DNA of 64,000 bases from Actinomycetota bacterium (lineage in GTDB: Bacteria > Actinomycetota > CADDZG01 > JAHWKV01 > JBOGWP01): assembly GCA_050693875.1 (NCBI GenBank), contig JBOGWP010000095.1, positions 9,232 through 73,231 of the forward strand, read 5' to 3'. Each line of letters begins with the position of its first letter. The first letter of the stretch is position 1. A program made the position numbers and the translations under genes. Shown piece after piece: positions 7,589 through 60,139 of the stretch. Under the pieces are notes generated by a model. The model did no database searches. It saw only the letters and a program-made list of their open reading frames with translations, and had not been told where the DNA came from.

Positions 7589-8191
7589 TCAGGGCTCCAG
7601 CGCCCGGCGCACAAACTCGATCAGCTCCTGTTCCCGCCGTCGCAGGGTCGTCCGGCCCGTCTGCCCCCCGGCCACCGCTCGCAGCACTCCCGCCTCGGTG
7701 AGGGATCCCACCACCGCGGTGTAGAGCGTGAAGAGGAGGAGCCCGGGATCTTGGCGGCGGAACTCGCCGGCCTCCATGCCCCGCTCGAGGAACTGCAGCG
7801 CACGCTTTCGGAGGGGCTCCAGTGCGCCGGCAACCTGCGTCACGATCTCCGGGCTTCGCCGGGCGGCCTCGCGTGCGAACAGCGGGAACTCGGGGGAGCG
7901 CTCGGCGAGGCGGAACACGGAACGGATCACGCGCTCGACCCGCGCCCACCCTTCGTCGGGAGCCTCGAGCACGCGCTCGAGGGTGCGCCGGAGACCGGCG
8001 ACCATCTCCCCGACACAGGCGTCGAAGAGCTCCTCCTTCGTCGGGAAGTAGTAGAGAAGGGTCTGCTTCCGCACGCCGGCGGCCTCGGCCACCATCTCGA
8101 GGCTCGCCCCGTCGTACCCCCGCTTGCCGAACGCCCGGATCGCCTCGTCGATGAGCTGACGGCGGCGTTCCTCGCCTCCGGTCCGCGTCAC
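7589..8191 (-). CDS. TetR/AcrR family transcriptional regulator
   Basis: N-terminal HTH (RRRQLIDEAIRAFGKRGYDGASLEMVAEAAGVRKQTLLYYFPTKEELF). GTG start chosen at 8189-8191. The ORF-track ATG at 8371 would add 60 low-complexity residues. Confidence 0.75.
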   Translation of the reverse strand: MTRTGGEERRRQLIDEAIRAFGKRGYDGASLEMVAEAAGVRKQTLLYYFPTKEELFDACVGEMVAGLRRTLERVLEAPDEGWARVERVIRSVFRLAERSPEFPLFAREAARRSPEIVTQVAGALEPLRKRALQFLERGMEAGEFRRQDPGLLLFTLYTAVVGSLTEAGVLRAVAGGQTGRTTLRRREQELIEFVRRALEP

Positions 8192-8195
8192 GGGG

Positions 8196-9098
8196 TCAAC
8201 CGCGCCACAGCCGGACGGGACGTCGCTGCGGGAGGGATGCCGAAGCCTCCCACCGCCGGCGCCACCTCGCCGCCGAGGGGCCCGAAGTATCGGCCAGGGT
8301 GCCGTCGGCGGCAGCGCGGATCGCTTCCCACCAGGTGCCTCGCTGCTCCGCGAGCGTCGTGGCGAGCTCACGGCGAATCCGGTCGTGAAATGGCAGCACC
8401 CGCTCCTCCGGCTCGGGGCGAAGTGGCCTGCCGAACCTGACCGACACCGGCAGGTGCCCGGAGGCGGGCCAGCCGCGCCCGCGAGGCATGGCGTGGTAGG
8501 TGCCCGAGAGGGCCACCGGCACCACGGGCGTGCCGGTCTCGACCGCCATCCACGCCGCTCCGGACCGAAGGGCCGCCACCCATCCGTCCTTCGAGCGCGT
8601 CCCCTCGGGGAACACGATCACGTTCCACCCGTCCCGGAGCAGGTCCCGGGCCTTGCGTGCCGCCCGGCGCCCGGCCCGCCGGTCGACCGGGAAGGCGTTG
8701 AAGACGAGGGTCGTCATCGCGGCTCGCCACCAGACGTCGAAGAAGTAGTCGGCCGCTGCCCCGGTCGCGGTCCGCCACCGCCATTTCGGCGGGAGCGACG
8801 TGAGGATCGCCGGCGCGTCCAGGTGGCTTGCGTGGTTGCTCACGAAGATCACCGGAGGCTCGAGCTCGTCGAGCACGTCGAGGCCGTGTACCTCCACGTC
8901 GACCTCGTGGCGCAGCAGCGGCCCGAGGGCGAAGCGGTGGACGAGCTCGCGGGCGATGCGGGCCGCGGGCGTGCGCGCCCAGTCGGTCGGGTGCTCCGGA
9001 ACGAGCTCGGGGCCGCGGGGGACCGACCGGGGGACCAGTGGACGGTGCGTCCAGCGCCACCCCCGCGCGACCGTTCCGACGTCCTTGACCAGCCCCAC
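8196..9098 (-). CDS. 1-acyl-sn-glycerol-3-phosphate acyltransferase family protein (PlsC/LPLAT)
   Basis: HXXXXD block (VIFVSNHASHLDAPAI) and the FPEGTRS block are conserved. Confidence 0.8.
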   Translation of the reverse strand: MGLVKDVGTVARGWRWTHRPLVPRSVPRGPELVPEHPTDWARTPAARIARELVHRFALGPLLRHEVDVEVHGLDVLDELEPPVIFVSNHASHLDAPAILTSLPPKWRWRTATGAAADYFFDVWWRAAMTTLVFNAFPVDRRAGRRAARKARDLLRDGWNVIVFPEGTRSKDGWVAALRSGAAWMAVETGTPVVPVALSGTYHAMPRGRGWPASGHLPVSVRFGRPLRPEPEERVLPFHDRIRRELATTLAEQRGTWWEAIRAAADGTLADTSGPSAARWRRRWEASASLPQRRPVRLWRG

Positions 9099-9101
9099 GT
9101 G

Positions 9102-10805
9102 CTACCTCCCGGTCTCGGCGCGCCTCGCGGGCGACGCCGACGGATGACCCCGGCGGTGGCCGTTGGCCGAGTCGGGGGCGCTCAGTCGCCTGCCCCGCCG
9201 CGGCGGCGGGTCGGGGCTCTCGGCCTCGCCGCGCACGTCGGCGAGCAGCAGCGGCGGAACTTTCAGCGCCGTGATGGAGGGGGACGTCCCGACCGTCTCG
9301 GAGGCCATGTCGAGCGCGTCGGCGAACGTGCTCGCGGTACGGAAGCCGAGCCGCGCCACGGTCGACCGATCGGCGCCGACGAAGATGACGTCACCGAGGT
9401 AGTCGAACGCGTGCGCCGCCCAGTACCACATGTAGAAGGGGTGGACGCCGTGGTAGGCGTGGGAGTGCCGGTAGAGGTGGGTGTACCAGGAGTCGGTGGC
9501 GAACGACTCCTCGAACTTGCCCTCGATGACCGCCGGGTCGGTGGTCTCGGCGAGGACCTCGTCGAAGAAGTCGATGTACGAGGGGTGATGGATGTTGTGG
9601 AACTCCCGCGCGACCGGGTGGTACATGATCATCACGCCGCCCCGCCGCACCAGCGGCCGCCCCCGGTACATGTTGAAGAAGTACCCGAGCCCCTCGCACA
9701 CGACGAGGATGGGGTTCATGATCGAATTCACGTTGTAGGGGCCGATGTAGGGAAGTCCCGCCACCAAGATGTCGGCCTGGCCGGACACCTCCACCATCTG
9801 CTGGCGACGGACGGCCTCGAGGGTGCGCTCGTGGACCGCCTCGGTCTCGCCGGCGTTGATCCCGGTCACGCCGTAGGGCGAGTAGATCCTGGAGAAGATC
9901 GCCCGCTTGACCGCGGCGGGCGTGCGGTCGGTCGAGGCCTTGGTGGCGAGGAAGGCCGCCTGATCGGCGGCCGACCATTCCCACTCGCGCTTCTGCAGGA
10001 AGTCGAACGGCGCACCAAAGGTGTGGTTGTTGAGCGTGGTTTCGATCGTGAAGATCTTCAGGTGGTTGGCGAGCAGCTTTCCCATCCGATCGCAGGAGGA
10101 GTGGAGCGCCGACGCCGGCGGGTCCATGTAGGACCTCGAGTGCAGCATCGTGTGGACGTTGTGGTGGTGGCGCAGGCTACGGTACGAGCCGAGGCCGACG
10201 GGGACGCTCTTGTGCCCGCCGTCCATCGCCACCAGGTTGATGTTCACGTAGACGAGCAGGTCGCTCTCGGCGGCGCGCTTGCTGATCTCGACGTCCTCGC
10301 CCTGGTCGGTGGCGCCGATGTAGGTCAGGTTGGGCCGGTCCTCGGCATCGAAGTTGGTGAGGTCGTCGGGCCAGAACGAGCGGAACACCCGCTCACCTAC
10401 CGCTCGCTTGATCTCCGCGGCAGTCATTCGGCGGTGGAGGGAGTTCGCCACCATGAGCTTGACGTTGTCGACGCCGGCCTGGGCGGCGAGCTCGAGCACG
10501 CGCTCGATCACCCGGCCGCGGATGTCGGGGGTCTGCATCGGCGGCAGCGGGAGTGAGATGTCGTCGAAGGCGATCGTGAGGCGCATGCCCGAGCGCAGCA
10601 GGGCCCGCAAGGGCTCCGATCCGTGCGGGTGCTCGAGCGCGTGGTCGATGGCGGCGTCGACGTCTCGGATGCCCGGCAGCGGTTCGGGCGGGTAGACGAC
10701 CCGGCTGCCGAGCGGCAGCTTCTGGAGCCGGAAGCCCTCGCCGTAGTGAAACAGCGTTGGCGGCGTCCGCTCGTCCACCTCGAGCACAAAACCCGGTCTG
10801 CTCAC
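9102..10805 (-). CDS. LarA-like protein (DUF2088 N-terminal domain; nickel-pincer-cofactor 2-hydroxyacid racemase/epimerase family)
   Basis: 567 aa from a GTG at 10803-10805 with a GAGGGGGG Shine-Dalgarno. This GTG lies 14 nt after the upstream ADH stop. The LarA-type segment DGGHKSVPVGLGSYRSL carries the conserved Lys, followed by a His cluster RHHHNVH. Confidence 0.6.
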   Translation of the reverse strand: MSRPGFVLEVDERTPPTLFHYGEGFRLQKLPLGSRVVYPPEPLPGIRDVDAAIDHALEHPHGSEPLRALLRSGMRLTIAFDDISLPLPPMQTPDIRGRVIERVLELAAQAGVDNVKLMVANSLHRRMTAAEIKRAVGERVFRSFWPDDLTNFDAEDRPNLTYIGATDQGEDVEISKRAAESDLLVYVNINLVAMDGGHKSVPVGLGSYRSLRHHHNVHTMLHSRSYMDPPASALHSSCDRMGKLLANHLKIFTIETTLNNHTFGAPFDFLQKREWEWSAADQAAFLATKASTDRTPAAVKRAIFSRIYSPYGVTGINAGETEAVHERTLEAVRRQQMVEVSGQADILVAGLPYIGPYNVNSIMNPILVVCEGLGYFFNMYRGRPLVRRGGVMIMYHPVAREFHNIHHPSYIDFFDEVLAETTDPAVIEGKFEESFATDSWYTHLYRHSHAYHGVHPFYMWYWAAHAFDYLGDVIFVGADRSTVARLGFRTASTFADALDMASETVGTSPSITALKVPPLLLADVRGEAESPDPPPRRGRRLSAPDSANGHRRGHPSASPARRAETGR

Positions 10806-10818
10806 CTCGTGACCCCCC

Positions 10819-11994
10819 TCATGCGTCCAGCCTGGGATCGAACGCCACCTTGACCGCCCCAAGCTTCCCTGCCGAGAAGGCATGGTCGATCGCCTCCCGG
10901 AAGCGAGCGAGAGGATATGCGGCGGCGACGAGCTTGCCCAGCTCCGCCTCGGCGCAGAGCTCCATCGATTCGTCGAACGCACCCGTCCCCGAGTAGGAGC
11001 CGGTGAGCTCCAGCTCGCGGAACCAGGCCGGCGACAGGTCGGCCCCGGCGGGCATCCCGGAGAGCACGACCCGGCCCCCGGCGCGCGTCGCCCGCAGCGC
11101 CAAGTCGAGCGCGCTCGCCGAGCCGGCGCACTCGAAGGAGATGTCGGCCCCCCCCAGCAGGAACGACGAGCCAAGCTGTGGATCGAGGCGGAAGGCCCGC
11201 GTCGAGCGGCGCACCGCGCCGAGGGCGTCGTCGACGCCGACGGCCTCGGCGCCCCAGGCCCGCACGAGATCCGCCTGGCCTCTGTGCTTCGCCACGACGA
11301 GCACCCGTCCGGCCTCGGCGCGCGCCCGCAGGGCGATGAGGGTCAGAAGGCCGACGGAGCCGGCACCGACGATCAGCACCGTGGCGTCGCGCTCGACCCG
11401 CGCCCGTCGGACGGACCGGATCGCACAGGCGAGCGGCTCGACCAGCACCGCGGTCTCGTCGGCCAGGTCGTCGGGCACCCGGTGCATCTGCGAGCGGTGG
11501 GCGACCATCAGCGCGCTCCACCCTCCGCCGGTGTCGTGGCAGTAGCCGGTCTGGAGGCCGGCGGCGAGGTGGCCGGCGGCGACGCGCTCGCAGCGCCCCT
11601 GCTGGCCGGAGGCGCACGGCGGGCAGGCAGGGTCGATCCCGCGGGCGGCGCAGCCGAGGATGGGGTCGATGACCACGCGCTGGCCCGCCCGCAGGTCCTC
11701 GCAGTCGTCGGCGAGGCGGGCCACCACCTCGTGCCCCGGCACGAAGGGCATCGAGACCAGCGCCGTGAAGTAGAGGCTGGCCCCCCCCGAGAGCGTGTTG
11801 AGGTCGGAGCCGCAGATCCCCGAGAGCAGCGGGCGCAGCCGCGCCCATCCCCTGCCCTCGACTCGCGGTTCCTCGCGGTCGACGAGGCGCAGCGGGGCGA
11901 CCGGCGCAGACAGGAGGCCGGGTACCCGCGACGAGATCGCCCGCGAGGCGACGTAGCGCGGGATCGACCGGAACATCTCGACGGCGAGCGTCAT
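10819..11994 (-). CDS. Zn-dependent medium-chain alcohol dehydrogenase (sorbitol/threonine-DH-like)
   Basis: MTLAVEMFRSIPRYV...LLSGICGSDLN...GHEVVARL... and an NAD fold (LIVGAGSVGLLT). Its ATG overlaps the stop of the upstream FAR-HAD gene (ATGA). The upstream part of ORF-track entry 10819..12261 is shadow sequence. Confidence 0.8.
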   Translation of the reverse strand: MTLAVEMFRSIPRYVASRAISSRVPGLLSAPVAPLRLVDREEPRVEGRGWARLRPLLSGICGSDLNTLSGGASLYFTALVSMPFVPGHEVVARLADDCEDLRAGQRVVIDPILGCAARGIDPACPPCASGQQGRCERVAAGHLAAGLQTGYCHDTGGGWSALMVAHRSQMHRVPDDLADETAVLVEPLACAIRSVRRARVERDATVLIVGAGSVGLLTLIALRARAEAGRVLVVAKHRGQADLVRAWGAEAVGVDDALGAVRRSTRAFRLDPQLGSSFLLGGADISFECAGSASALDLALRATRAGGRVVLSGMPAGADLSPAWFRELELTGSYSGTGAFDESMELCAEAELGKLVAAAYPLARFREAIDHAFSAGKLGAVKVAFDPRLDA

Positions 11995-14282
11995 CGGTGG
12001 GCCCGGACGCGCGACGCCCCATCGAGCGACAAGGGCTCGGGCGGAGGCGAAGGGATGAGGATGCGCGGCGTTCCCGGGTCGGCCGGCCACTCCTCCATCG
12101 GCCAGCGGCGCCGGCGGGCGATCCGTTGCAGCGCGACTTCGGCGTTCACCGCGACCGGATGCCCCACCGCTTGGAGGAGCGGCAGGTCGGTCATCGAGTC
12201 GGCGTAGCCGTACGACTTCGAGAGGTCGGCCCCGACCGCCTCGGCATAGCCGCGAAGCCACGAGGCGCGAGCCTCGCCGACCAGCGGGGGCTGATCCATG
12301 TCGCCGGTGAACACTCCGTCCTCGACGCGCAGCTTGGCGCCGATCAGCTCGTCGGCCAGCGGCGCCAGTGGCTCGATGCAGAAGTCGAGCGCGGCGGTGA
12401 TGAGTACCACGACGTGCCCGGCGGCCCGATGCTCACGGATCCGGCGGACGGCGGCCGGGAACGTCCTGCGAAGCACGAGCTCGCCCAGGATCTCGGCCGA
12501 CATCGCACGTACCTGTTCCTCCGGAACCCCCTCGTACAGGCGGTAGAAGCGCCGCAGGAACTCGCCGCGGTCGCGCCGCTCGGCCTTCAGGAATCCCGGG
12601 CCGCGCATCGCCAGCGCGGCGACCTCCCTGAGCCGGCCGCCGAGCCCCTCGACCTCCGACATGCGAAGCCAGAGGTAGGGCTCGAGGACGTTGGAGTCGA
12701 TGATGGTGCCGTCGATGTCGAGGACGGCGAGCACCGGGCGGCCTGGATCCTCGGCGGGACGAAGCTTGACCGTTGGGGTGCCCGGACGGAACGAGGGGCC
12801 GCGCATGGCCTTCGTCACCGCCGGCATGTGGAGCTCCTCGAGGTAGTGCTTCCAGGAGAACGCGGCGGCGTCGAAGGGGAAGTCGCGGCGATCGTCGCCG
12901 GAGAGCGACGCGAGCAGCGCCTGGACGTTGCGGTCGACGTGGATCACCTCCGCCTCGACGTAGGCCCCGTACAGCTCGGCGTAGCGCTTGATGAAATCGA
13001 ACTGGCCGCGGAGCCTGTCGACCCGCTGTGCGGTGTCGCGGGCGAGCTTGTTGCGGGGAAGGCGGGCGACCACCCGCTCGGCGGTGCGAAGCACCTTCTC
13101 CGCAGTCACCATCCTCCGCTGGACCGCCTGCTTCCCCGGAAAGCTCCACTCCGGCACCTTGTAGAAGCCTCGGTTGGTCTCGGGAAGCGGGTGGGCGAGG
13201 AAGTAGCTGCGCGTGTGCTCGTACATGTCCCGGTACTTGAGCGGGTTGCGCGTGCCGGAGCACACCTGGAAGACGGCCCGGCGCTCGCCGGAACCGGCGA
13301 GAGGCCGGGCGGCGGCGGCCAGGAGCGCGTTCACCACCAGGTCGACCGGAATGATGTCGAGCACGCCCTCGGGGATGCCGGCGAACTCAGGGAGGGCGCC
13401 GCGGCCGAAGGCGAGGATCAGCGGCTCCGCCATCCGGAAGCCCTCGATCCAGCCCGGGTGCGGTCGCTCGAGGGCGCTCTCGATGATCGACGGCCGGACG
13501 ATGATCAGCTGGTTGTCGCCGGCGAGCTCGTCGAGCGCCATCTCGGTGAGCGCCTTGGTGAAGGCGTACACGTCCGGCCATCCGAGGCTGCGTGCCCGGG
13601 CGCGCCCGTAGTCGACGAGGCGGGACTTGATCCACTCCTTGCGAAGGTCCTCGGCCCGGCCGGCGATCGCCTGGGGGCCGACCCGGCTGCGCTCGGCTCG
13701 CCCCTGCGCCAGGAAGCGCCGCAACGCCTCCGGGGTGCGCGACTCGTGCTCGACCTCGGCGCGCATCCGCTCGGCGGCCGCAGCCTCGGCTCGCCAGTCG
13801 GCCTTCTTCCCGAGCAGCTCCTCGGTCTGGGTGCCGCGCGTGAGGCCGGCGACGTAGGCGGTGGAGACGTGAACGAACGGACGGCCGGCGCAGCCTTCGT
13901 AGAGGCGCACCGAACCCCACAGGTTCGTTCGGAAGGCGTCGTCGATCGGTGGGTCGAACTGCACCGTGGCCGCGGTGTGGATGACGAGGTCGACGTCGTC
14001 GGCGACCGGCGGGGGCCCTGCGGAGAGGTCCGCGGTGACCATGCGCACCTTCTCCTCGAAGAGCCTATCGATGGCCGCACGCCCGATGCGCTCCACGGCC
14101 GGGTCGAAGGCGGAGCTGTTCTTCAGACCCTTCAGCCGGGAGCTCGGGTTGCCGCGCACTACGAGGTCGAGGCGGGCGACCGGGGTGTCAACGAGGAGCC
14201 GCTCGAGCAGGGCCGTCCCGAGGAACCCCGTGACCCCTGTGAGGAGGATGCGCTTGCCCGCGAGCGCGTCGCGAATACCCAA
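11991..14282 (-). CDS. Fatty acyl-CoA reductase (male-sterility/NAD-epimerase fold) fused to a HAD-IB hydrolase domain
   Basis: N-terminal KRILLTGVTGFLGTALLERL Rossmann fold, ...YAFTKALTEMAL... FAR-type core, and a C-terminal VLDIDGTIIDSNV HAD motif I. TTG start at 14280-14282 with GGGAG 7 nt upstream. Confidence 0.75.
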   Translation of the reverse strand: MGIRDALAGKRILLTGVTGFLGTALLERLLVDTPVARLDLVVRGNPSSRLKGLKNSSAFDPAVERIGRAAIDRLFEEKVRMVTADLSAGPPPVADDVDLVIHTAATVQFDPPIDDAFRTNLWGSVRLYEGCAGRPFVHVSTAYVAGLTRGTQTEELLGKKADWRAEAAAAERMRAEVEHESRTPEALRRFLAQGRAERSRVGPQAIAGRAEDLRKEWIKSRLVDYGRARARSLGWPDVYAFTKALTEMALDELAGDNQLIIVRPSIIESALERPHPGWIEGFRMAEPLILAFGRGALPEFAGIPEGVLDIIPVDLVVNALLAAAARPLAGSGERRAVFQVCSGTRNPLKYRDMYEHTRSYFLAHPLPETNRGFYKVPEWSFPGKQAVQRRMVTAEKVLRTAERVVARLPRNKLARDTAQRVDRLRGQFDFIKRYAELYGAYVEAEVIHVDRNVQALLASLSGDDRRDFPFDAAAFSWKHYLEELHMPAVTKAMRGPSFRPGTPTVKLRPAEDPGRPVLAVLDIDGTIIDSNVLEPYLWLRMSEVEGLGGRLREVAALAMRGPGFLKAERRDRGEFLRRFYRLYEGVPEEQVRAMSAEILGELVLRRTFPAAVRRIREHRAAGHVVVLITAALDFCIEPLAPLADELIGAKLRVEDGVFTGDMDQPPLVGEARASWLRGYAEAVGADLSKSYGYADSMTDLPLLQAVGHPVAVNAEVALQRIARRRRWPMEEWPADPGTPRILIPSPPPEPLSLDGASRVRAHR

Positions 14283-14414
14283 ACCGGCTCCCTGGTGTCT
14301 TTCTACCGAACGGTAGATTATTCATGCGTGGCGGGCGCCGCAAGTTGCGGTTCCCGCCGTCCGGGCTCGTCGAAGGGTGCGAGGGCGCCGGAAGGCCGGG
14401 GCGTCCTCAAGGTT

Positions 14415-14506
14415 CGGGCCACGCTCCCCGCGCCCGCCTCGACGGGGAACCGGACGGGAGCGGGCCACGCTCCCCGCGCCCGCCTCGACGGGGAACCGGA
14501 CGGGAG
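14415..14506. repeat. Perfect 46-bp tandem direct repeat (2 copies plus a 4-nt start of a third)
   Basis: cgggccacgctccccgcgcccgcctcgacggggaaccggacgggag occurs at 14415-14460 and identically at 14461-14506. It lies between the histidine kinase stop (14515) and the FAR-HAD start (14282). Confidence 0.9.
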
Positions 14507-14514
14507 CGGGGCGG

Positions 14515-15802: not shown

Positions 15803-16735
15803 ATGCCGCTCGCCGCCGCAGCCGACGTCGGTGGGACGAAGGTCTTCGCCGCCCTCGTCGACGACGCCGGCTCGATCCACGGCGACACCGTGGAGATCGC
15901 CACCGATCGCGCTGCGGGCACCGCCTCGGCGATCGCCGCGCTCCAACGACTGCTCGAAATGAACGGGGAGAAGGTGCAGGCGGTCGGGGTCGCTGCCGCC
16001 GGCTTCGTCGAGCACCCGCGGGGCCGGATCGCGTTCGCTCCCAACCTCATCTACGACCGGCCGGAGCTCCGCCAGGCGGTGCACGAGGCCCTTCTGCTTC
16101 CCACCATCGTGGAGAACGACGCCAATGCAGCCGCCTGGGGCGAAACCCGGTTCGGTGCGGGCCGGGGGACGGCCGAGGTGCTCATGCTCACCGTCGGGAC
16201 CGGGATCGGCGGTGGCATCGTGACATCGGGTCGGCTCCACCGAGGCGCTCGCGGTTTCGCCGCCGAGGTCGGGCACATCAGGCTGGTGGAGGGGGGGCCG
16301 GAGTGCGCCTGCGGGCAGCGCGGGCACCTCGAGGCGCTCGCGTCGGGGTCGGCGATCGGCAGGATGGCGCGCGAGGCCCTGGCCAGAGGTGAGACGTCTC
16401 TCATCACCGAGCTCGCCGACGGCGGTGAGGTCTCCGGAGCTCTGGTCACGAAGGCCGCGCTGGAGGGTGACGCGCTGGCCAGGTCGGTCCTCGAACGCGC
16501 GGGTCGGTGGCTGGGGATAGGGCTGGCGAACCTCGTGAACGTTCTCGATCCCGGGCTGATCGTCATCGGTGGGGGCGCCGCGGTGGCCGGAGCGCTGCTG
16601 CTCGATCCCGCCGCCGACGAGCTCGCCATCCGGCTCGAGGGGCGCCGCGAACCGCCTCCGATGACGCAGGCGAGGCTGGGCAACCGCGCCGGGGCGATCG
16701 GAGCGGCGTCGCTTGCCCTCGAGCTCACGGGCTGA
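15803..16735 (+). CDS. glk: ROK-family glucokinase
   Basis: ADVGGTKVFAALVD..., ...LTVGTGIGGGIV..., and the zinc motif CACGQRGHLEALASG. Confidence 0.85.
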   Translation: MPLAAAADVGGTKVFAALVDDAGSIHGDTVEIATDRAAGTASAIAALQRLLEMNGEKVQAVGVAAAGFVEHPRGRIAFAPNLIYDRPELRQAVHEALLLPTIVENDANAAAWGETRFGAGRGTAEVLMLTVGTGIGGGIVTSGRLHRGARGFAAEVGHIRLVEGGPECACGQRGHLEALASGSAIGRMAREALARGETSLITELADGGEVSGALVTKAALEGDALARSVLERAGRWLGIGLANLVNVLDPGLIVIGGGAAVAGALLLDPAADELAIRLEGRREPPPMTQARLGNRAGAIGAASLALELTG

Positions 16736-16836
16736 AGCGTCACCCATCGGGAGAGCCGCTCGATCTGGACACGTCGGGCCCCCGCCGCCAGAATGAGCGC
16801 GGCCGCCTGCAACGATCGTCGACGGAGGGACATCGC

Positions 16837-18627
16837 GTGGCTACCGACGACACTGGCCCTCACGAGCACATCGATATGACGTCCGCCCCGCCGGAGGAGG
16901 CCGAGGGGCGCGAGGTCCGACCCCCGATCGAACGACCCGAGCGGCCGCGGCGGGCTCCGTTGCCGCGATCCGGCGACATCCTACCGGGAGGTCCGGAGCG
17001 CGGTGATGCTCCGGGACGTCGCAAGTGGCGAAGGGCAACCCCCGAGCCCCCGCCGCCGGCTGCGCCGCCGCTCCGCAGAGCCGAGCCTCGTCCGAGCCAA
17101 CCACGGCCACGCACCGGGGCCCCCCCGCCTCCGCCATCGAGCCCGACACAGCCTCCCAGCCAGTCGCCACCGGAAGGAGGCCGATGGCCGGAAAGCCCTC
17201 CGCCAGCCCGACTCGATCCCCTCATCGGCCGGCCGTCTGCCCCGGAACCTCTCCGAGAGAGCCCGCTGCCGCCACCACCGGCTCCGGCCAGCTTGCCGCC
17301 GATCGCCCCTCCCTGGGAGGCTCCTCGCCGGTCCGAAAGCTCATTCCCCCCCGGCGCGGGCGGGCCGCCCGCAGCCCACCCTACCCCCCGTGACGAAGGA
17401 CCCCCCTCTGCCCCCCCGCCACCCTCCGGCCAGCTGCCGCCCTCCGGCTACCCCCCACCGCCGAGCGCTCCCCCGCCCGGCAGCGCCGTGCCTCCCGCCG
17501 GCCCGCCGCCCACCGGCCCGTCGCAAGAGCCTCCCCCCCCACCGCCCGGCGGAGACCGCCCGTCCTGGCCGGGGCCGCCGCCACCGCCGACCGGTCCTCC
17601 CGGGCCTGGTGGACACTCGGGTCCCTCCGGGCCGCCTGGAGGAGTTGGACCCAGCTGGCCCGTGCCTCCCTCCGGGCCGGGGGGTCCCCCGCGCGGGCCG
17701 GAAGGTGGGGCGCCCCCGCTCTTCGCCCGTGGGGTCGGCGACCTGCTCGACGCAGCGATCACCCTCTACCGGAGCCACTGGAAGCTCTATATCGGGATCA
17801 CCGCCATCGTGCTCGGCCCCTTCCTGCTGCTGCAGGCGATCGCGGTCCAAGCCGCGGTGGGGCCAGTCGGTGAGCTCAACTCCACCCTCGGCGGCCGGTT
17901 TGGCCCCGGCATCCAGCCCACCACCACGGCCCTTCCGGGGTTCATCGCCCGCATCGTTGGTGTGGCCGCGGTCTTCGGGCTGCTCAACTTGCTGATCGTG
18001 CTTCCGTTCCTGGCCGCCGCGACCGCCCGTGCGACGGCGCAGATCTATCTCGGGTCCGAGCCGACCGTCGGCGACGTGTACCGCTTCGCCCTCAGCAAGC
18101 TGGGCTCCGTGCTTTGGGTGACCATCCTCACCGGACTCATCTGGTTGGGGCTGATCCTCGGCGTCGGGGTTGTGCTGGCGATCGTCACATTCGTGCTCCC
18201 CAGCCCCTTTGACGGCTTGCTGGGAGGCCTGATTGGCTTGGCGGCCTTCGTAGGATTCGTGATCGTGTTCATTCGCCTCGTCTTCGGGACGACCACCGTC
18301 GTGGTCGAGGATCGGCGAGGAGTGGATGCGATCAAGCGCTCCTGGGAGCTGTCTGCCGGCTTCTTCTGGAAAATCCTTGGGATGTCGATCCTCGCGGGCA
18401 TTCTCACGGTCATCGCCGCCTTCATCGTGCGGATTCCCTTTTCCGTGTTGGGTCGTGTTCTCGGCGGCGCGGGATGGTTCGTCGAGGGCCTCGGGCAAGC
18501 AGCCTCGCAGGTCGTGGTAAACCCCTTCTCGCTGATCATCATCGTGCTGCTCTACTTCGACATGCGGATCCGCCAGGAGGCGTTCGACCTCACCTTGATG
18601 GCGCAGGAGCTGCAACGCCCGGTGTGA
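16837..18627 (+). CDS. Membrane protein with a ~250-aa proline-rich N-terminal region and a C-terminal polytopic domain (GPDPase-membrane-domain-like)
   Basis: GTG at 16837 with a GGAGGGA Shine-Dalgarno 7 nt upstream. The N-terminus is PPPP/PPSG/PGGP low complexity. The C-terminal ~290 aa contain six hydrophobic helices (LYIGITAIVLGPFLLLQAI...). Its stop overlaps the start of the DUF4129 gene. Confidence 0.6.
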   Translation: MATDDTGPHEHIDMTSAPPEEAEGREVRPPIERPERPRRAPLPRSGDILPGGPERGDAPGRRKWRRATPEPPPPAAPPLRRAEPRPSQPRPRTGAPPPPPSSPTQPPSQSPPEGGRWPESPPPARLDPLIGRPSAPEPLRESPLPPPPAPASLPPIAPPWEAPRRSESSFPPGAGGPPAAHPTPRDEGPPSAPPPPSGQLPPSGYPPPPSAPPPGSAVPPAGPPPTGPSQEPPPPPPGGDRPSWPGPPPPPTGPPGPGGHSGPSGPPGGVGPSWPVPPSGPGGPPRGPEGGAPPLFARGVGDLLDAAITLYRSHWKLYIGITAIVLGPFLLLQAIAVQAAVGPVGELNSTLGGRFGPGIQPTTTALPGFIARIVGVAAVFGLLNLLIVLPFLAAATARATAQIYLGSEPTVGDVYRFALSKLGSVLWVTILTGLIWLGLILGVGVVLAIVTFVLPSPFDGLLGGLIGLAAFVGFVIVFIRLVFGTTTVVVEDRRGVDAIKRSWELSAGFFWKILGMSILAGILTVIAAFIVRIPFSVLGRVLGGAGWFVEGLGQAASQVVVNPFSLIIIVLLYFDMRIRQEAFDLTLMAQELQRPV

Positions 18628-34061: not shown

Positions 34062-35549
34062 CTAGGAGTCGTCGTCTCGGGAGGGCGACAGGAGCTCCCC
34101 GCTCGGCCTCAGGTGGGCGCCGCCTGCGGCGTAGTGCCGGAGCCGCTCCTGGCCCTCGGGTGAGAGCATCTCGACGGCGTCGAAGAACACCTTCCCCCGC
34201 GCGGCCCGCAGCGCGGCATCTCCGGCGCTCCCCCGGTGCGGCAGGTCGGTGGACAGGAGCACCAGCGGCCGGGGGGCGAAGTCGCCCGAGGCGAGAACCC
34301 CCGCCTTTCCGAGCGCCTTCCACAGCGTGTCGGTGCGGCGCAGCCCCGCCCGGGTGGTCGTGAAGGCCCCCGAGACGTCGAAGTGCCAGACCTCGCCGTG
34401 GCGGTCCTTGGCGAGGAAGGTGACCTCGATCCCGGTTGGCATCCGGCGGTCCTCGACGATCTCGGAGAACCCGCAGTCCTCGAGGACGGCGCGCGCGATC
34501 TCCCTGGCCTTCCGCCCTTCCCGCACGGCCCGTGCCTGGAAGCTCTCGTCGTCGGCCTGCTGGCCGGTGGGGAGGGCGGGGAGCACGACGCGCGGGTGAG
34601 CCGACTGCCACCCCGACCGAGCCGCCACCCGTGCGCGCTCCTCGTCGACGCGGCGGTTGGATGACTCGACGTAGGACGCATCGGTGTCGTATCCGGCGAA
34701 GCGGCGCTCGGTCCGCAGCGCGGCAATCGCGGTTGAGCCGCTGCCCATGAACGGGTCGAGCACGAGGTCGCCGCGATAGGTGTAGAGCTCGATCAGCCGC
34801 TGGGGGAGCTCGACCGGGAAGGGGGCGGGGTGGCCGACCCGGGTGGCGGACTCGGGCGGGATCTCCCACAGGTCGGTGGTCGCCTCCATGAAATCGTCGG
34901 TGAACATCGAGGCCTCGGAGGGGAGCCCCATCGACGCCCGCTCGCGGCGAGAGATGGCTCGGCTGAAGCGGCCCTTCGAGGCGACGACCACGCGCTCGGT
35001 CAGGTCGCGGAGAACCGGGTTTGCCGGGCTCTGGAACGAGCCCCAGGCGCACGAGCCGGTGGCGCCGCGGGCCTTCTGCCATATGATCTCGCCCCGCAGC
35101 AGCAGGCCGAGGCGGTCCTGCAGGATCCCGATCACGTCTGCCGAGAGCGAGCGGTAGGGCCGGCGGCCGAGGTTGGCGACGTTGACCGCGATCCGCCCTC
35201 CCGGCTCGAGCTTGTCGACGCAGCATGCGAAGACCTCGGTCAGCAACTCGAGGTACTCGAAGTAGGTGGCCGGTACGCCGCCCTCGCCGAGCGCCTGCTC
35301 GTACTCCTTGCCGGCGAAGTAGGGAGGGGAGGTGACGACGAGGGCGACGGAGGCCGGCGGGAGCTCGTCCATCCGCCGCGCATCGCCCCGACGGATCCAA
35401 TCGAGCCCGAGGGGCGGGTGCACGATCTCGTCGCTCGAGAGCTGCGGAGGGGTGAAGCGGGAGTAGAAGAATGAGGAGTCGTGGCTCTCGCGCCGCCCGA
35501 CGCCGAATGGGGAGGTGGACGTGGGCTTTCGCCGCCTGCCGACGCTCAC
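34062..35549 (-). CDS. Beta-class DNA methyltransferase (N4-cytosine or N6-adenine; motif IV SPPY before motif I) with ~150-aa C-terminal extension; no adjacent restriction enzyme
   Basis: Motif IV (VVTSPPYF), ...GRIAVNV..., motif I (DPFMGSGSTAIAA). The C-terminal EIVEDRRMPTGIEVTFLAKDRHGEVWHFDVSGAF... is of unknown family. Confidence 0.8.
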   Translation of the reverse strand: MSVGRRRKPTSTSPFGVGRRESHDSSFFYSRFTPPQLSSDEIVHPPLGLDWIRRGDARRMDELPPASVALVVTSPPYFAGKEYEQALGEGGVPATYFEYLELLTEVFACCVDKLEPGGRIAVNVANLGRRPYRSLSADVIGILQDRLGLLLRGEIIWQKARGATGSCAWGSFQSPANPVLRDLTERVVVASKGRFSRAISRRERASMGLPSEASMFTDDFMEATTDLWEIPPESATRVGHPAPFPVELPQRLIELYTYRGDLVLDPFMGSGSTAIAALRTERRFAGYDTDASYVESSNRRVDEERARVAARSGWQSAHPRVVLPALPTGQQADDESFQARAVREGRKAREIARAVLEDCGFSEIVEDRRMPTGIEVTFLAKDRHGEVWHFDVSGAFTTTRAGLRRTDTLWKALGKAGVLASGDFAPRPLVLLSTDLPHRGSAGDAALRAARGKVFFDAVEMLSPEGQERLRHYAAGGAHLRPSGELLSPSRDDDS

Positions 35550-35695
35550 TGCGGCCTCCTCGTATGTTCAGTTCCTGATGGCAGAGCATAGAGGCGGGCC
35601 CTTGAGGATCCTCGGCTTTCCCAAGGTGTTCCTCCGAAGAAGGCCACGCCGGCCGCGGGCCTCCTGTCACCCGCCCCTCGTACACTTGACCCAAA

Positions 35696-42094: not shown

Positions 42095-42801
42095 TGGGAA
42101 AGCGCCCCAAGCCTCAGCTCGAGCGCACCTACCGCCCGCGGCGCCTCGTCGAGCCCTTCGACTGGTCCATGTCGGGGCCGGTGCGTGGGCTGCGCAGCGA
42201 TCTCCAGGAGCTGGTGCTGTTCCCGATCGTCCGCGCGTTCGCCCGCATCGACTGCCGCGGGAAGCAACACCTGAAGGAGGTGCGGGGGCCGGTGGTGCTG
42301 GTATCGAACCACACCTCGCATTTCGACTGCCCCGTCATCCTGACCGCGCTCCCGCACCGCATCCGCCAGCGGACGATCGTGGCCGCGGCGGCCGACTACT
42401 TCTACAAGGTACGGATGCTCGGAGCCCTCACCTCGTTGGCGCTCGGCACGATCCCCTTCGAGCGCCACGAGGGCTCGCAGGCCGGGCTCGAGCGCTGCAA
42501 GGAAGGCCTTCGCCGGGGGTGGAACGTGCTGATCTTCCCCGAGGGCACCCGCTCGACCACCGGCGGGCTGGCCGCCTTCAAGCGCGGGGCCGCTCATCTT
42601 TGCCTCGAGACGAAGTGTGCCGCAGTGCCGATCCACATCCGTGGGGCGCACAACATCATGCCGAAGGGGGCTACGATGCCGAAGCCCGGGCGGGTGGAGG
42701 TCCGCTTCGGCGCTCTCGTGCACCCGGAGCCCGGCAACGACCCCGAGGCGCTGACCAAGCGGCTCCACGACGCGGTGGCCGCGCTCGAGGCCGGGGCCTG
42801 A
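42094..42801 (+). CDS. 1-acyl-sn-glycerol-3-phosphate acyltransferase family protein (PlsC paralog)
   Basis: VVLVSNHTSHFDCPVI ... FPEGTRS. ATG overlaps the uvrA stop (TGATG). Confidence 0.8.
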   Translation: MGKRPKPQLERTYRPRRLVEPFDWSMSGPVRGLRSDLQELVLFPIVRAFARIDCRGKQHLKEVRGPVVLVSNHTSHFDCPVILTALPHRIRQRTIVAAAADYFYKVRMLGALTSLALGTIPFERHEGSQAGLERCKEGLRRGWNVLIFPEGTRSTTGGLAAFKRGAAHLCLETKCAAVPIHIRGAHNIMPKGATMPKPGRVEVRFGALVHPEPGNDPEALTKRLHDAVAALEAGA

Positions 42802-42835
42802 GGCGCAGCCGGCCCTCCCGACGGCGGGACACGGC

Positions 42836-43432
42836 ATGGGGATCTACGCGATCAAGCCGGCCTTCCGCCGGCGGCTCGCCGGGGCGAGCCGGTGGTGCGT
42901 CCGGCACGGCGTCTCCGCCGACACCCTGACCCTCGCGGGGGTGGTGGCCTCGCTCGCGGGAGGGGCTGGATTGGCCGGTGGGGTTCAGAGGCGCTGGCTG
43001 CTGCTCGTCGTCCCGGTGCTGGCGATCGGCCGGACGGCGCTGAACGCCCTCGACGGGATGGTGGCCGGCGAAGCTGGCACGGCTCGCCCCTTCGGCGAGG
43101 TGCTGAACGAGCTTGCCGACCGGGTCTCCGACGCGGCGTGGTTCGTCGGGCTCGGCTTCGCCGCCGGCATGTTCCCGGCACTGGCGGCCCTCGTGCTCGC
43201 TTACCTATCGTCCCAGGTGGGCGTCGCCACGAAGGCGGCCGGCGGCCCGCGGGTCTATGCCGGGATCATGGGCAAGGCCGACCGGATGGTGCTGCTCTCG
43301 GCCGCCTCGCTGCTGGCGGTGCCGATCGGACTCGTGGTCCTCACCTGGGCGGCGTGGATCGCCGCGGCCGGCGCGGCAGTGACGATCGCCCAGCGCCTCG
43401 CCGCCGGCCTTTCGGCCCTTCGCCGGCGCTGA
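42836..43432 (+). CDS. CDP-alcohol phosphatidyltransferase family protein (PgsA/PIS-like)
   Basis: DTLTLAGVVASL...GRTALNALDGMVAGEAGTARPFGEVLNELADRVSD matches the CDP-OH phosphotransferase motif D-G-x2-A-R-x8-G-x3-D-x3-D. Confidence 0.75.
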   Translation: MGIYAIKPAFRRRLAGASRWCVRHGVSADTLTLAGVVASLAGGAGLAGGVQRRWLLLVVPVLAIGRTALNALDGMVAGEAGTARPFGEVLNELADRVSDAAWFVGLGFAAGMFPALAALVLAYLSSQVGVATKAAGGPRVYAGIMGKADRMVLLSAASLLAVPIGLVVLTWAAWIAAAGAAVTIAQRLAAGLSALRRR

Positions 43433-43438
43433 ACCCGA

Positions 43439-58483: not shown

Positions 58484-58487
58484 GCGT

Positions 58488-60098: not shown

Positions 60099-60139
60099 GA
60101 GCCGCTTGCGAGCCTCGACCCGATGGTAGATTCCGCCGG

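What the first reader, a model, noticed from the sequence alone, without database searches (positions are those of the whole stretch)
9102..10805. LarA homolog with the conserved cofactor-lysine motif (GGHKS) but no larB/larC/larE in the neighbourhood
LarA-type enzymes need the nickel-pincer nucleotide cofactor, which is made by LarB, LarC and LarE. Here the LarA-like gene sits in a lipid-type operon with none of them nearby. The motif around the predicted tethering lysine (DGGHKSVPVGLG) and the following His cluster are retained, which argues for a functional enzyme. Either the cofactor genes are elsewhere, or this DUF2088 subfamily does something different. Its substrate in a lipid context would be new.
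Basis: partly seen in the sequence, partly recalled or inferred. Interest (0 to 1): 0.55.

Follow-up and report, generated by a model that had tools for sequence, protein, structure and literature searches.

The report
Nickel-pincer enzyme in ether-lipid-like operon
The gene encodes a catalogued but functionally unsolved nickel-cofactor enzyme (LarAH14) that is the actinobacterial counterpart of ElbC, the "unknown" protein of the myxobacterial ether-lipid operon, which gives a testable idea of what both proteins do.

Summary
Window 9102-10805 (-) encodes a 567-aa LarA homolog that keeps the cofactor-tethering Lys (K199), the Ni-ligand His (H215) and one catalytic His (H124). No larB/larC/larE lies anywhere in the 64 kb.

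It is not new as a family. It scores 898 bits against NCBIfam NF052592 (LarAH14/15/16, cutoff 740) and is 69% identical to Frankia LarAH14. Desguin et al. 2020 catalogued that group with the same lipid-type neighbours, no second catalytic His, and no activity on seven 2-hydroxyacids.

The missing lar genes are most likely elsewhere in the genome. In 6 of 80 related genomes, in three independent arrangements, larB-larE-larC sits directly beside the same cassette.

New here: the cassette (FAR-HAD, Zn-ADH, LarAH14, AGPAT-like acyltransferase, TetR) shares its domain inventory with the Myxococcus xanthus ether-lipid operon elbA-E. ElbC, called "unknown function" in that literature, is a LarAH15 protein: 50% identical to the window protein and in the same NCBIfam family.

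Best reading: an NPN-dependent ElbC-type enzyme of an AGPS-independent alkyl-ether-lipid pathway. Its exact step is inferred, not shown.

The parts
11991..14282 (-). Gene 1: fatty acyl-CoA reductase domain (aa 1-~500; GVTGFLG, YAFTK) fused to a HAD-IB phosphatase domain (aa ~518-730; DIDGT)
   Evidence: Pfam NAD_binding_4 2.7e-41, Sterile, HAD PF12710 5e-35. TIGR01490 119 bits against cutoff 98. PDB 7eoz fatty acyl-CoA reductase 1e-49. Motifs. The HAD domain is 32-37% identical to ElbB, and the FAR domain is 27-31% identical over its full length to the ElbD N-terminus.
10819..11994 (-). Gene 2: Zn-dependent medium-chain dehydrogenase of the polyol / ketose-reductase type (391 aa). Its start overlaps the stop of gene 1 (ATGA).
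   Evidence: Precomputed Pfam ADH_N / ADH_zinc_N. Best NCBIfam and PDB relatives are idonate 5-DH, IolM, ketose reductase 1e3j and sorbitol DH, all below the equivalog cutoffs. Present in 77 of 80 related loci.
9102..10805 (-). Gene 3 (the finding): LarAH14-family nickel-pincer-nucleotide enzyme, 567 aa. Folded core is aa 4-529; aa 530-567 form a disordered Arg/Pro-rich tail.
10188..10223 (-). Motif DGGHKSVPVGLG. K199 (10209-10211) is the equivalent of the NPN-tethering Lys (LarA Lys184, LarA_Sp Lys195).
   Evidence: HMMER alignment to 9q2u. K199 is invariant in the 31-sequence class-A alignment. Coordinates.
10161..10163 (-). H215, the equivalent of the Ni-coordinating His (LarA His200, LarA_Sp His211).
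   Evidence: Invariant in class A.
10434..10436 (-). H124, the single retained catalytic His (LarA His108, LarA_Sp His115).
8196..9098 (-). Gene 4: PlsC/AGPAT-type acyltransferase (HASHLD, FPEGTR).
   Evidence: Pfam Acyltransferase 1.6e-22. PDB 5kym PlsC 2e-17. Present in 80 of 80 related loci. 31-41% identical to the C-terminal AT domain of ElbD.
7589..8191 (-). Gene 5: TetR-family regulator, co-directional, last gene of the operon.
   Evidence: Pfam TetR_N. Linked to the cassette in 31 of 80 loci.
14303..14316 (.). Palindrome CTACCGAACGGTAG, 21 nt upstream of the gene 1 start and abutting an AATAAT box. Probable operator of the cassette TetR.
   Evidence: Unique in the window, 0.01 expected by chance. 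TACC-N4-GGTA is found upstream of FAR-HAD in every assessable related locus with a linked TetR, and in none without one.

Best explanation
SHOWN. The gene encodes a member of the curated LarAH14/15/16 family and belongs to its cofactor-competent class. That class has the LarA fold, the tethering Lys, the Ni-ligand His and one catalytic His. It lacks the second catalytic His and the carboxylate-binding residues. The gene is the third of five in a translationally coupled, TetR-controlled operon: FAR-HAD, Zn-ADH, LarAH14, AGPAT-like acyltransferase, TetR. The first four genes are collinear in the related genomes examined. The M. xanthus ether-lipid operon elbA-E contains the same families: ElbB is HAD-IB, ElbC is a LarAH15 protein, and ElbD holds FAR and AGPAT domains.

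INFERRED. (a) The enzyme uses the nickel-pincer nucleotide (NPN), made by larB/larE/larC located outside this window. (b) The cassette is an actinobacterial, split version of the elb pathway and makes 1-O-alkyl (ether) glycerolipids from acyl-CoA without AGPS. (c) LarAH14/ElbC occupies the slot that AGPS fills in the classical route. My preferred chemistry is a redox-neutral 'borrowed hydride'. The FAR domain supplies a fatty aldehyde, which forms a hemiacetal with the sn-1 OH of glycerol phosphate. H124 deprotonates the C2-OH while NPN takes the C2 hydride. After water loss, NPN-H reduces the oxocarbenium ion, giving 1-O-alkyl-DHAP. The ketose-reductase-type ADH then reduces C2, the AGPAT-like enzyme acylates sn-2, and the HAD-IB domain removes the phosphate. 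This scheme needs only one acid/base face, which fits the single catalytic His.

Sub-confidences: NPN-dependent, about 0.8. Part of an elb-like lipid pathway, about 0.6. Ether-bond-forming step, about 0.3. The hydride-shuttle chemistry specifically, about 0.2.
For: Family: NF052592 897.8 bits against cutoff 740. The protein is 69% identical to Frankia LarAH14 and 50% identical to MXAN_1529, E=1e-141.

Fold and active site: AF2 pLDDT 91, with best PDB matches to the single-His NPN enzymes 9q3k and 9q3j at TM 0.85. K199, H215, H124, Y357 and H455 align with LarA_Sp Lys195 (thioamide to NPN), His211 (Ni ligand) and His115, Tyr307 and His401 (next to the unidentified ligand). All five are invariant in class A. 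The sister class, Group 16, has lost the Lys and His residues.

Cofactor genes: bona fide LarB (238 bits, cutoff 175), LarE (268, cutoff 150) and LarC (183, cutoff 90) directly flank the cassette in 6 of 80 genomes, in three different arrangements. A further case is L172. About 0.3 loci would be expected by chance, from 1.25 Mb of flank examined.

Cassette: PlsC in 80 of 80 loci, ADH in 77, FAR-HAD in 72, always in the same order. In locus L002 it lies next to fabD-fabH-fabG-acpP-fabF.

elb link: MXAN_1529 is listed as LarAH Group 15 and elbD is MXAN_1528. elbD is flanked by elbC ('unknown function') and by the epimerase-family gene elbE. Locus L090 (98% identical to MXAN_1529) reads Epimerase | HAD | Lar_N | NAD_binding_4-AMP-binding-PP-binding-Acyltransferase | Epimerase. 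Its Lar_N protein scores 848 bits on NF052592. ElbB and the window HAD domain both match TIGR01490.

AGPS slot: the second M. xanthus operon is AGPS / FAR-AT / SDR, parallel to ElbC / ElbD / ElbE.

Aldehyde route: an elbD-dependent fatty aldehyde was detected but no fatty alcohol, and the steps leading to the alkyl ether are stated to be unknown.
Against: No lar biosynthesis gene is in the window, and the rest of this genome could not be searched.

NPN binding has never been shown for any Group 14 or 15 protein. Frankia LarAH14 supplied with NPN showed no activity, although only seven 2-hydroxyacids were tried.

The cassette lacks the ACS and ACP domains of ElbD, and it has a Zn-ADH where elb has SDRs. 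The FAR domain is no closer to ElbD than to generic FARs: about 150 bits against 173 bits for 7eoz.

elbC itself was never tested genetically; only polar elbB insertions were made. elbD homologs do not guarantee ether lipids, as in Pontiella. To my knowledge ether lipids have not been reported from Nocardioides or Frankia.

The proposed chemistry has no enzymatic precedent.
Confidence: 0.5

Rival explanations
1. It is an NPN-dependent epimerase or isomerase acting on the C2 hydroxyl of a glycerol-phosphate, lysolipid or polyol-phosphate intermediate. Examples would be setting backbone stereochemistry or an aldose-ketose-type hydride shift. In this reading it sits in the same lipid pathway but does not form the ether bond.
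For: All known LarA chemistry is hydride abstraction and return at a secondary alcohol. [quoted passage not shown] The structurally closest subfamily, Group 17, sits beside triose-phosphate isomerase and GAPDH genes and carries a phosphosugar-sized ligand. The ADH is of the polyol type.
Against: An epimerase needs acid/base groups on both faces, and the second His is missing. This reading leaves the AGPS-independent ether-forming step of the elb pathway without any candidate enzyme. The AGPS / ElbC operon parallel is not explained.
Confidence: 0.2
2. The cassette makes a non-ether neutral or polar lipid, such as fatty alcohols, wax-type esters or an acylated polyol phosphate. LarAH14 then serves some unknown accessory role, and the resemblance to elb is only shared generic lipid domains.
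For: FAR, PlsC and HAD-IB are common lipid enzymes. The FAR domain scores no better against ElbD than against Marinobacter-type FAR. ACS/ACP are absent and the dehydrogenase type differs. No ether lipids are known from these taxa (my own knowledge).
Against: The LarAH component is 50% identical to ElbC and falls in the same equivalog family. HAD-IB, LarAH, FAR and AT co-occur as a fixed set in two phyla. ElbB is a far closer relative of the window HAD domain (120-137 bits) than any solved HAD (61 bits or less).
Confidence: 0.15
3. One reading: a racemase or epimerase of 2-hydroxy (fatty) acids that feeds a lipid pathway.
For: Every characterised LarA homolog acts on 2-hydroxyacids. NCBIfam names the family 'hydroxyacid isomerase'.
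Against: The His174 equivalent is absent. The Arg75 equivalent is Leu85. Published Group 14 alignments show the Tyr294, Gln295 and Lys298 equivalents as Ser, a gap and Asn. Frankia LarAH14 was inactive on seven 2-hydroxyacids. The protein scores 71 bits against the LarA equivalog cutoff of 460.
Confidence: 0.07
4. The organism makes no NPN. The protein works without the cofactor, as a scaffold, a lipid-binding subunit or an enzyme using another cofactor.
For: No lar genes occur in 64 kb. A sister clade (Group 16, class B) has lost the Lys and His residues yet stays in the same PlsC/HAD context. That shows the fold can persist without them.
Against: K199, H215, H124 and D82 are invariant across class A down to 29% identity. 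larB-larE-larC abuts the cassette in three independent arrangements. The closest solved relative carries covalently bound NPN on the equivalent Lys.
Confidence: 0.08

Closest known systems
LarAH14 of Frankia sp. EAN1pec (Franean1_4168), LarAH Group 14 of Desguin et al. 2020 (PMC7583248); NCBIfam NF052592
   Same: 69% identical over the 396 aa available. Same residue signature: D, L/I, H, gap, gap, L, K, H. Same neighbours: COG0204 PlsC, COG0560 HAD, COG1063 Zn-ADH, COG3320 thioester reductase. Scores above the family cutoff.
   Different: The window protein carries a 42-aa disordered C-terminal tail. Otherwise it is an ordinary member. The function of the reference protein is itself unknown, with no activity in seven assays.
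ElbC (MXAN_1529) of the Myxococcus xanthus ether-lipid operon elbA-E; LarAH Group 15
   Same: 50% identity, E=1e-141. Same NCBIfam equivalog: 848 and 898 bits. Same retained Lys and His residues. Encoded next to HAD-IB, FAR and AGPAT-type domains.
   Different: In myxobacteria FAR and AT are fused with ACS and ACP into ElbD, HAD is a separate protein (ElbB), and the dehydrogenases are SDRs (ElbA, ElbE). Here FAR is fused to HAD, AT is separate, ACS/ACP are absent, and the dehydrogenase is a Zn-ADH. The ElbC to LarA equivalence is my inference from two papers plus locus L090. No paper in the searched library states it.
LarA_Sp / LarA_Bw, single-histidine LarA homologs (PDB 9q2u, 9q3k, 9q3j; Group 17; PMC12611868)
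   Same: Best sequence and structure matches in the PDB (E=1.6e-30; TM 0.85). Shared Lys, Ni-ligand His, single catalytic His, and the Tyr307 and His401 equivalents. The substrate of these enzymes is also unknown.
   Different: Only 20-22% identity. Group 17 has an invariant Asn in place of His174, whereas N190 is not invariant here and published alignments show a gap. The genomic context there is glycolytic or carbohydrate, not lipid.
Lactate racemase LarA (L. plantarum, PDB 5huq) and characterised 2-hydroxyacid racemases/epimerases
   Same: Same fold and Lar_N domain. Same NPN-anchoring Lys, Ni-ligand His, Asp and first catalytic His.
   Different: The second catalytic His and the carboxylate-binding residues are missing. 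The protein is about 100 aa longer. It scores 71 bits against the cutoff of 460 for the LarA equivalog.
Alkylglycerone-phosphate synthase (AGPS; MXAN_1676 and eukaryotic AGPS). Functional analogy only.
   Same: It occupies the corresponding slot in a parallel operon (AGPS / FAR-AT / SDR against ElbC / ElbD / ElbE) in the same organism.
   Different: It is an unrelated FAD enzyme. That LarAH14/ElbC performs the equivalent step is a hypothesis and was not tested.

Membership tests
LarAH14/15/16 family (NCBIfam NF052592) | Whole-protein score above the curated cutoff (740 bits) | tested here: met
   897.8 bits, profile positions 1-520 of 520.
LarA superfamily (DUF2088 / Lar_N) | Lar_N domain and the two-domain LarA fold | tested here: met
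   PF09861 E=1e-38. AF2 pLDDT 91. The 19 PDB matches with E<=0.001 are all LarA-family structures.
LarA superfamily, cofactor-competent members | Lys that forms the thioamide to NPN (Lys184 in LarA) | tested here: met
   K199 aligns with Lys195 of LarA_Sp and is invariant in class A.
LarA superfamily, cofactor-competent members | His that coordinates nickel (His200 in LarA) | tested here: met
   H215 aligns with His211 of LarA_Sp and is invariant in class A.
LarA superfamily, cofactor-competent members | Actual binding of NPN and nickel | not testable with these tools
   Needs protein chemistry. Not reported for any Group 14 or 15 protein.
LarA superfamily, cofactor-competent members | larB, larC and larE present in the same genome | not testable with these tools
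   Only the 64-kb window and a 24.7-kb MAG contig were readable, and neither holds them. In relatives they abut the cassette in 6 of 80 loci.
Canonical 2-hydroxyacid racemases/epimerases (LarA sensu stricto and characterised LarAHs) | Two catalytic histidines (His108 and His174) | tested here: not met
   H124 is present. No His occurs at the His174 position: HMMER places N190 there, and the published Group 14 alignment shows a gap.
Canonical 2-hydroxyacid racemases/epimerases | Carboxylate-binding residues (Arg75, Gln295, Lys298) | tested here: not met
   The Arg75 equivalent is Leu85. For Group 14 the published alignment gives a gap for Gln295 and Asn for Lys298.
Canonical 2-hydroxyacid racemases/epimerases | Score above the cutoff of a characterised equivalog model | tested here: not met
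   LarA 71 bits (cutoff 460), Mar 78.6 (500), LarAH10 77.4 (540).
Single-His LarA subfamily of Gatreddi et al. 2025 (LarA_Sp / LarA_Bw) | Invariant Asn replacing His174 | tested here: inconclusive
   N190 aligns with Asn185 only through a one-residue gap. It is Asn in only about 60% of class-A representatives.
Single-His LarA subfamily of Gatreddi et al. 2025 | Ligand-proximal His115, Tyr307 and His401 | tested here: met
   H124, Y357 and H455 align with them (my reading of the alignment) and are invariant in class A. Overall identity is only 20-22%, so this is a sister group, not the same subfamily.
elb-type ether-lipid gene cluster (M. xanthus elbA-E) | ElbC-type protein | tested here: met
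   50% identity to MXAN_1529. Both score above the NF052592 cutoff.
elb-type ether-lipid gene cluster | HAD-IB phosphohydrolase (ElbB), FAR-like reductase and AGPAT-like acyltransferase (ElbD domains) | tested here: met
   All three domain types are present. They match the elb counterparts in 62, 34 and 25 of the 80 myxobacterial loci respectively, many of which are short contigs.
elb-type ether-lipid gene cluster | Acyl-CoA-synthetase and ACP domains of ElbD; SDR-type ElbE | tested here: not met
   The cassette has no AMP-binding or PP-binding domain. Its dehydrogenase is a Zn-ADH with no homolog in the myxobacterial loci.
elb-type ether-lipid gene cluster | Production of alkyl ether lipids | not testable with these tools
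   Needs lipidomics.

The most novel reading that the evidence does not exclude
LarAH14/ElbC is the missing ether-bond-forming enzyme of the AGPS-independent bacterial pathway. It would use the nickel-pincer nucleotide to borrow the C2 hydride of glycerol phosphate and return it to a fatty-aldehyde-derived oxocarbenium ion, a reductive etherification that gives 1-O-alkyl-DHAP. That would be the first non-racemase reaction in the LarA fold.
Probability: 0.22. Interest if true: 0.9.

Novelty: new member of a known kind. Interest (0 to 1): 0.6.

Why it matters
Two open questions meet in this gene.

1. The NPN field has had no substrate for the single-histidine LarA homologs since 2020.
2. The ether-lipid field has not known since 2014 how the ElbD pathway makes the alkyl ether bond without AGPS. 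It still labels ElbC 'unknown function'.

Recognising ElbC as a LarAH gives both fields a concrete candidate and cheap experiments: elbC and larC knockouts, nickel dependence of ether lipids in M. xanthus, and expression of the Nocardioides litoris cassette together with its adjacent larBEC.

It would also change which marker genes are used to look for ether-lipid producers in soils and sediments. Surveys currently screen with ElbD, AGPS and Ger only.

Tried and rejected
1. Finding larB/C/E in this organism's genome. The window's genome is not among the GTDB representatives (best match 79%). P0001's 86-kb contig could not be looked up.
2. Detecting distal co-occurrence by matching contig lengths between LarC hits and LarAH14 loci. 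Only the already adjacent cases coincided (contigs of 210136, 75668 and 379433 bases), so this was uninformative.
3. Nocardioides humi LarC locus L170. larB-larE-larC stands alone there, and whether that genome has the cassette is unknown.
4. Clustering all ORFs of the 80 loci for further conserved partners. Stop-to-stop ORFs merged into one cluster. Beyond the cassette and TetR, nothing recurred in more than 15 loci.
5. Plasmid collection. No LarAH14 was found, only weak canonical larA hits. It served as a source of LarB/C/E sequences.
6. Literature searches for DUF2088 or lactate racemase together with lipid terms returned nothing. Desguin 2014 (PMC4066177) is not held.
7. Residue-level superposition on holo LarA_Sp was not possible because model coordinates are not exposed. 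Equivalences rest on the HMMER alignment.
8. Rejected: a pseudogene or artefact (identical protein in two assemblies, intact motifs). Also rejected: the GAPDH-PGK-TPI genes at 49-52 kb as functionally linked, since they are a housekeeping cluster 38 kb away.
Full report
**1. The observation.**
Window 9102-10805 (- strand) is an intact ORF of 567 codons that starts with GTG. NCBI called exactly this protein on a 24.7-kb MAG contig, GCA_975100735.1 ('Actinomycetota bacterium'). That contig is 99.9% identical to the window.

- The quoted motif DGGHKSVPVGLG is residues 195-206. The His cluster HHHNVHTMLH is residues 213-222.
- Pfam gives Lar_N at E=1e-38.
- An AlphaFold2 model built on 31 relatives has pLDDT 91 and pTM 0.88. 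Only the last 38 residues are disordered.
- All 19 significant PDB matches are LarA-family structures.

So the LarA homolog is real and lies at the stated coordinates.

**2. No lar biosynthesis genes in the window.**
The window has about 70% G+C, so I picked genes by third-position G+C. I ran about 40 ORFs covering 16-64 kb through Pfam. The first 17 kb carry precomputed Pfam labels from L001. Nothing has an AIRC (LarB), Ni_insertion (LarC) or PP-loop (LarE) domain.

As a second test I took LarB, LarC and LarE from an L. plantarum plasmid lar operon and ran tblastn on the window. All hits had E>0.1.

The rest of the window is housekeeping: suf genes, MoxR/DUF58, PBP1, a copper ATPase, uvrB, uvrA, uvrC, rapZ, gap-pgk-tpi and peptide ABC transporters.

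**3. Which family, and what was already known.**
NCBIfam places the protein in NF052592, 'NPN-dependent hydroxyacid isomerase, LarAH14/15/16 family', at 897.8 bits (cutoff 740). It falls far below the cutoffs of the characterised racemase models: LarA scores 71 against 460.

The group numbers come from Desguin et al. 2020 (PMC7583248).
- Their Dataset S2 lists Group 14 (Frankia, Acidimicrobium, Ilumatobacter, Kribbella). The residue signature is D72=D, R75=L/I, H108=H, H174=gap, K184=K, H200=H, Q295=gap, K298=N.
- Their Table S1 gives the Group 14 neighbourhood as COG0204 (PlsC), COG0560 (HAD), COG1063 (Zn-ADH) and COG3320 (thioester reductase). No LarB/C/E is listed.
- Frankia LarAH14 was purified, supplied with NPN and found inactive in seven 2-hydroxyacid assays.
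- The window protein is 69% identical to that Frankia protein.

Gatreddi et al. 2025 restate that Groups 14 and 15 lack the His174 equivalent.

**4. Catalytic residues.**
The HMMER alignment to holo LarA_Sp (9q2u) gives these equivalences:

- H124 = His115, the catalytic His.
- K199 = Lys195, which forms the thioamide to NPN.
- H215 = His211, the Ni ligand. Section 2.5 of the paper prints 'His221', but section 2.4 and the sequence say 211.
- D82 = Asp73.
- L85 = Lys76, the position of Arg75 in LarA.
- Y357 = Tyr307 and H455 = His401, the residues next to the unidentified ligand.

The last two equivalences are my own reading of the printed alignment.

Among 68 full-length representatives of 50%-identity clusters, two classes appear.
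- Class A keeps D81/D82, H124, R125, Y186, K199 and H214/H215. It includes the window protein.
- Class B has lost H124, K199 and the HH pair. It corresponds to Desguin's Group 16, the Frankia paralogs with K184 replaced by Gly.

In a 31-sequence class-A alignment reaching down to 29% identity, D81, D82, H124, R125, K199, H215, H325, Y357, N364, Y410, Y445 and H455 are invariant. Retention of the cofactor residues is thus selected.

This is not a canonical racemase, and a 2-hydroxy acid is an unlikely substrate.

**5. Are the cofactor genes elsewhere?**
Lack of adjacent lar genes is ordinary. The NPN-dependent groups 2, 5, 6, 7, 10 and 20 show no LarB/C/E association in Table S1. About 24% of genomes carry larBCE somewhere.

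I examined the best 80: Actinomycetota MAGs, Nocardioides, Frankia, Acidimicrobiales and two Dormibacterota.

In 6 of the 80, a larB-larE-larC cluster lies directly beside the cassette. There are three arrangements in three lineages.
- Convergent, 8-190 nt after the acyltransferase gene: L031, L033, L035 and L053.
- Divergent from the FAR-HAD gene, with about 160 nt between them: L045, Nocardioides litoris DSM 103718.
- larE co-directional and about 100 nt upstream of FAR-HAD: L058.

The neighbours pass the NCBIfam equivalog cutoffs for LarB, LarE and LarC. A seventh case, L172, turned up when I started from LarC instead.

With 1.25 Mb of flank examined, and assuming genomes of 4-5 Mb, about 0.3 loci would be expected by chance. 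This is an inference.

I could not search the remainder of this organism's genome. 'Genes elsewhere' is favoured but not shown.

**6. The operon.**
Five genes are translationally coupled.

1. FAR-HAD, 11991-14282. It has a Rossmann motif GVTGFLG, YAFTK, and the HAD motif DIDGT. The FAR part matches fatty acyl-CoA reductase 7eoz at 1e-49, and the HAD part is TIGR01490 HAD-IB.
2. A Zn-ADH, 10819-11994. Its closest characterised relatives are ketose reductase, sorbitol DH and idonate 5-DH.
3. LarAH14.
4. A PlsC/AGPAT-type acyltransferase, 8196-9098, with HASHLD.
5. A TetR regulator, 7589-8191.

The order FAR-HAD > ADH > LarAH > AT holds in all 80 genomes wherever the contig reaches. PlsC is present in 80, ADH in 77 and FAR-HAD in 72.

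Upstream of gene 1 lies a palindrome, CTACCGAACGGTAG (14303-14316). It is unique in the window, with 0.01 copies expected by chance. The TACC-N4-GGTA motif occurs upstream of FAR-HAD in every locus with a linked TetR whose FAR-HAD start could be located, and in none without one. It is therefore the probable operator.

**7. The link to ether lipids.**
Desguin's Group 15 is myxobacterial. Its context is two NAD-dependent epimerase-family genes, a HAD and a long-chain acyl-CoA synthetase. Dataset S2 lists MXAN_1529 in Group 15.

- elbD, the key gene of M. xanthus ether-lipid synthesis, is MXAN_1528.
- The review PMC9131029 describes elbA and elbE as NAD-dependent epimerase/dehydratase family, and elbB as a HAD phosphohydrolase.
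- It describes elbD as FAR1-like + ACS + ACP + AGPAT-like.
- It says elbD is flanked by elbE and by elbC, 'a protein of unknown function'.

A metagenome contig 98% identical to MXAN_1529 (L090) reads Epimerase | HAD | Lar_N | NAD_binding_4-Sterile-AMP-binding-PP-binding-Acyltransferase | Epimerase. ElbC is therefore a LarA homolog. It scores 848 bits on NF052592 and is 50% identical to the window protein. An independent contig shows the same LarAH > ElbD-like > epimerase order.

Across 80 myxobacterial loci, the window proteins match their elb counterparts.
- The HAD domain matches ElbB at 32-37% identity (120-137 bits).
- The FAR domain matches the ElbD N-terminus over its full length at 27-31%.
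- The acyltransferase matches the ElbD C-terminus at 31-41%.

The actinobacterial cassette is thus a re-partitioned elb set. It lacks ACS/ACP and has a Zn-ADH in place of the SDR. No paper in the searchable library connects ElbC with LarA or NPN. Environmental surveys screen only with ElbD, AGPS and Ger.

**8. Mechanism (inferred).**
M. xanthus has a second, minor ether-lipid operon: AGPS / FAR-AT fusion / SDR. Set beside ElbC / ElbD / ElbE, the one non-matching component is AGPS against ElbC. That makes ElbC/LarAH14 the obvious candidate for the ether-forming step.

In M. xanthus an elbD-dependent fatty aldehyde was seen but no fatty alcohol. The steps up to the alkyl ether are described as unknown.

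I propose a redox-neutral reaction in five steps.
1. The aldehyde and the sn-1 OH of glycerol phosphate form a hemiacetal.
2. NPN abstracts the C2 hydride, with H124 as the base.
3. Water leaves.
4. NPN-H reduces the oxocarbenium ion, giving 1-O-alkyl-DHAP.
5. The ketose-reductase-type ADH, the AGPAT-like enzyme and the HAD-IB domain then complete an alkyl-acyl-glycerol.

An alternative is an AGPS-like acyl/alkyl exchange through a covalent adduct at C4 of NPN. Both are hypotheses. Neither NPN binding nor any activity is known for this group.

**9. Verdict.**
The gene is a new member of a known, curated, functionally unsolved family. The missing lar genes are unremarkable. What raises the interest is the ElbC equivalence. 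It turns two open questions into direct experiments: the substrate of the single-His LarA homologs, and the AGPS-independent formation of the ether bond.

Noticed in passing
window 14415-14510: A perfect 46-bp tandem duplication (2.1 copies) lies in the intergenic region between the GAF histidine-kinase gene and the FAR-HAD promoter. The otherwise 99.9%-identical MAG contig L001 has a single copy.
   Followed up: partly
window 14303-14316; loci L009-L087: The palindrome TACC-N4-GGTA upstream of the cassette correlates perfectly with the presence of a linked TetR gene. In several lineages it is duplicated or triplicated at about 22-26 bp spacing.
   Followed up: partly
proteins P0125, P0128, P0129, P0132 etc.; Frankia FRAAL3757 and Francci3_2278 (Group 16): A large sister clade, up to about 50% identical, has lost the tethering Lys, the catalytic His and the Ni-ligand His. 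It still sits with PlsC and HAD genes. These may be pseudoenzymes or non-covalent NPN binders.
   Followed up: partly
window 9105-9230: LarAH14 carries a 42-aa Arg/Pro-rich tail predicted to be disordered (pLDDT about 31). Most homologs, at 525 aa, lack it. In several relatives the tail overlaps the start of the acyltransferase gene in another frame.
   Followed up: no
L005 10188-10975 (L. plantarum plasmid pLP12-1): The larB gene between larA and larC is split by a frameshift, which explains its absence from the gene table.
   Followed up: no
L002 13798-19501: In a 903-kb metagenome contig the cassette and its TetR lie directly next to a sigma factor gene and a fabD-fabH-fabG-acpP-fabF-acpS-fabG cluster.
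   Followed up: no
window 42755-44386: A CDP-alcohol phosphatidyltransferase gene (nearest models archaetidylinositol-phosphate and PIP synthase, both below cutoff) is followed by cdsA, between uvrA and uvrC. It is unrelated to the cassette, 32 kb away.
   Followed up: no
window 16471-18627: A membrane protein (DUF7847) is preceded by about 400 aa of extremely Pro-rich sequence. Gene calls in 16.7-20.4 kb are uncertain because third-position G+C is atypical there.
   Followed up: no
window 57981-64000: Four consecutive family-5 solute-binding-protein genes follow one peptide-type ABC transporter operon.
   Followed up: no
window 34062-35567 and 44374-45165: There is an N6/N4 DNA methylase with a long C-terminal extension. 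Separately, there is a REase_MTES_1575/DUF559-type gene in a slightly lower-G+C stretch.
   Followed up: no
PMC12611868, sections 2.4 and 2.5: The paper names the Ni-ligand His of LarA_Sp as His211 in one section and His221 in another. The deposited sequence has His at 210, 211 and 217 but not at 221.
   Followed up: yes
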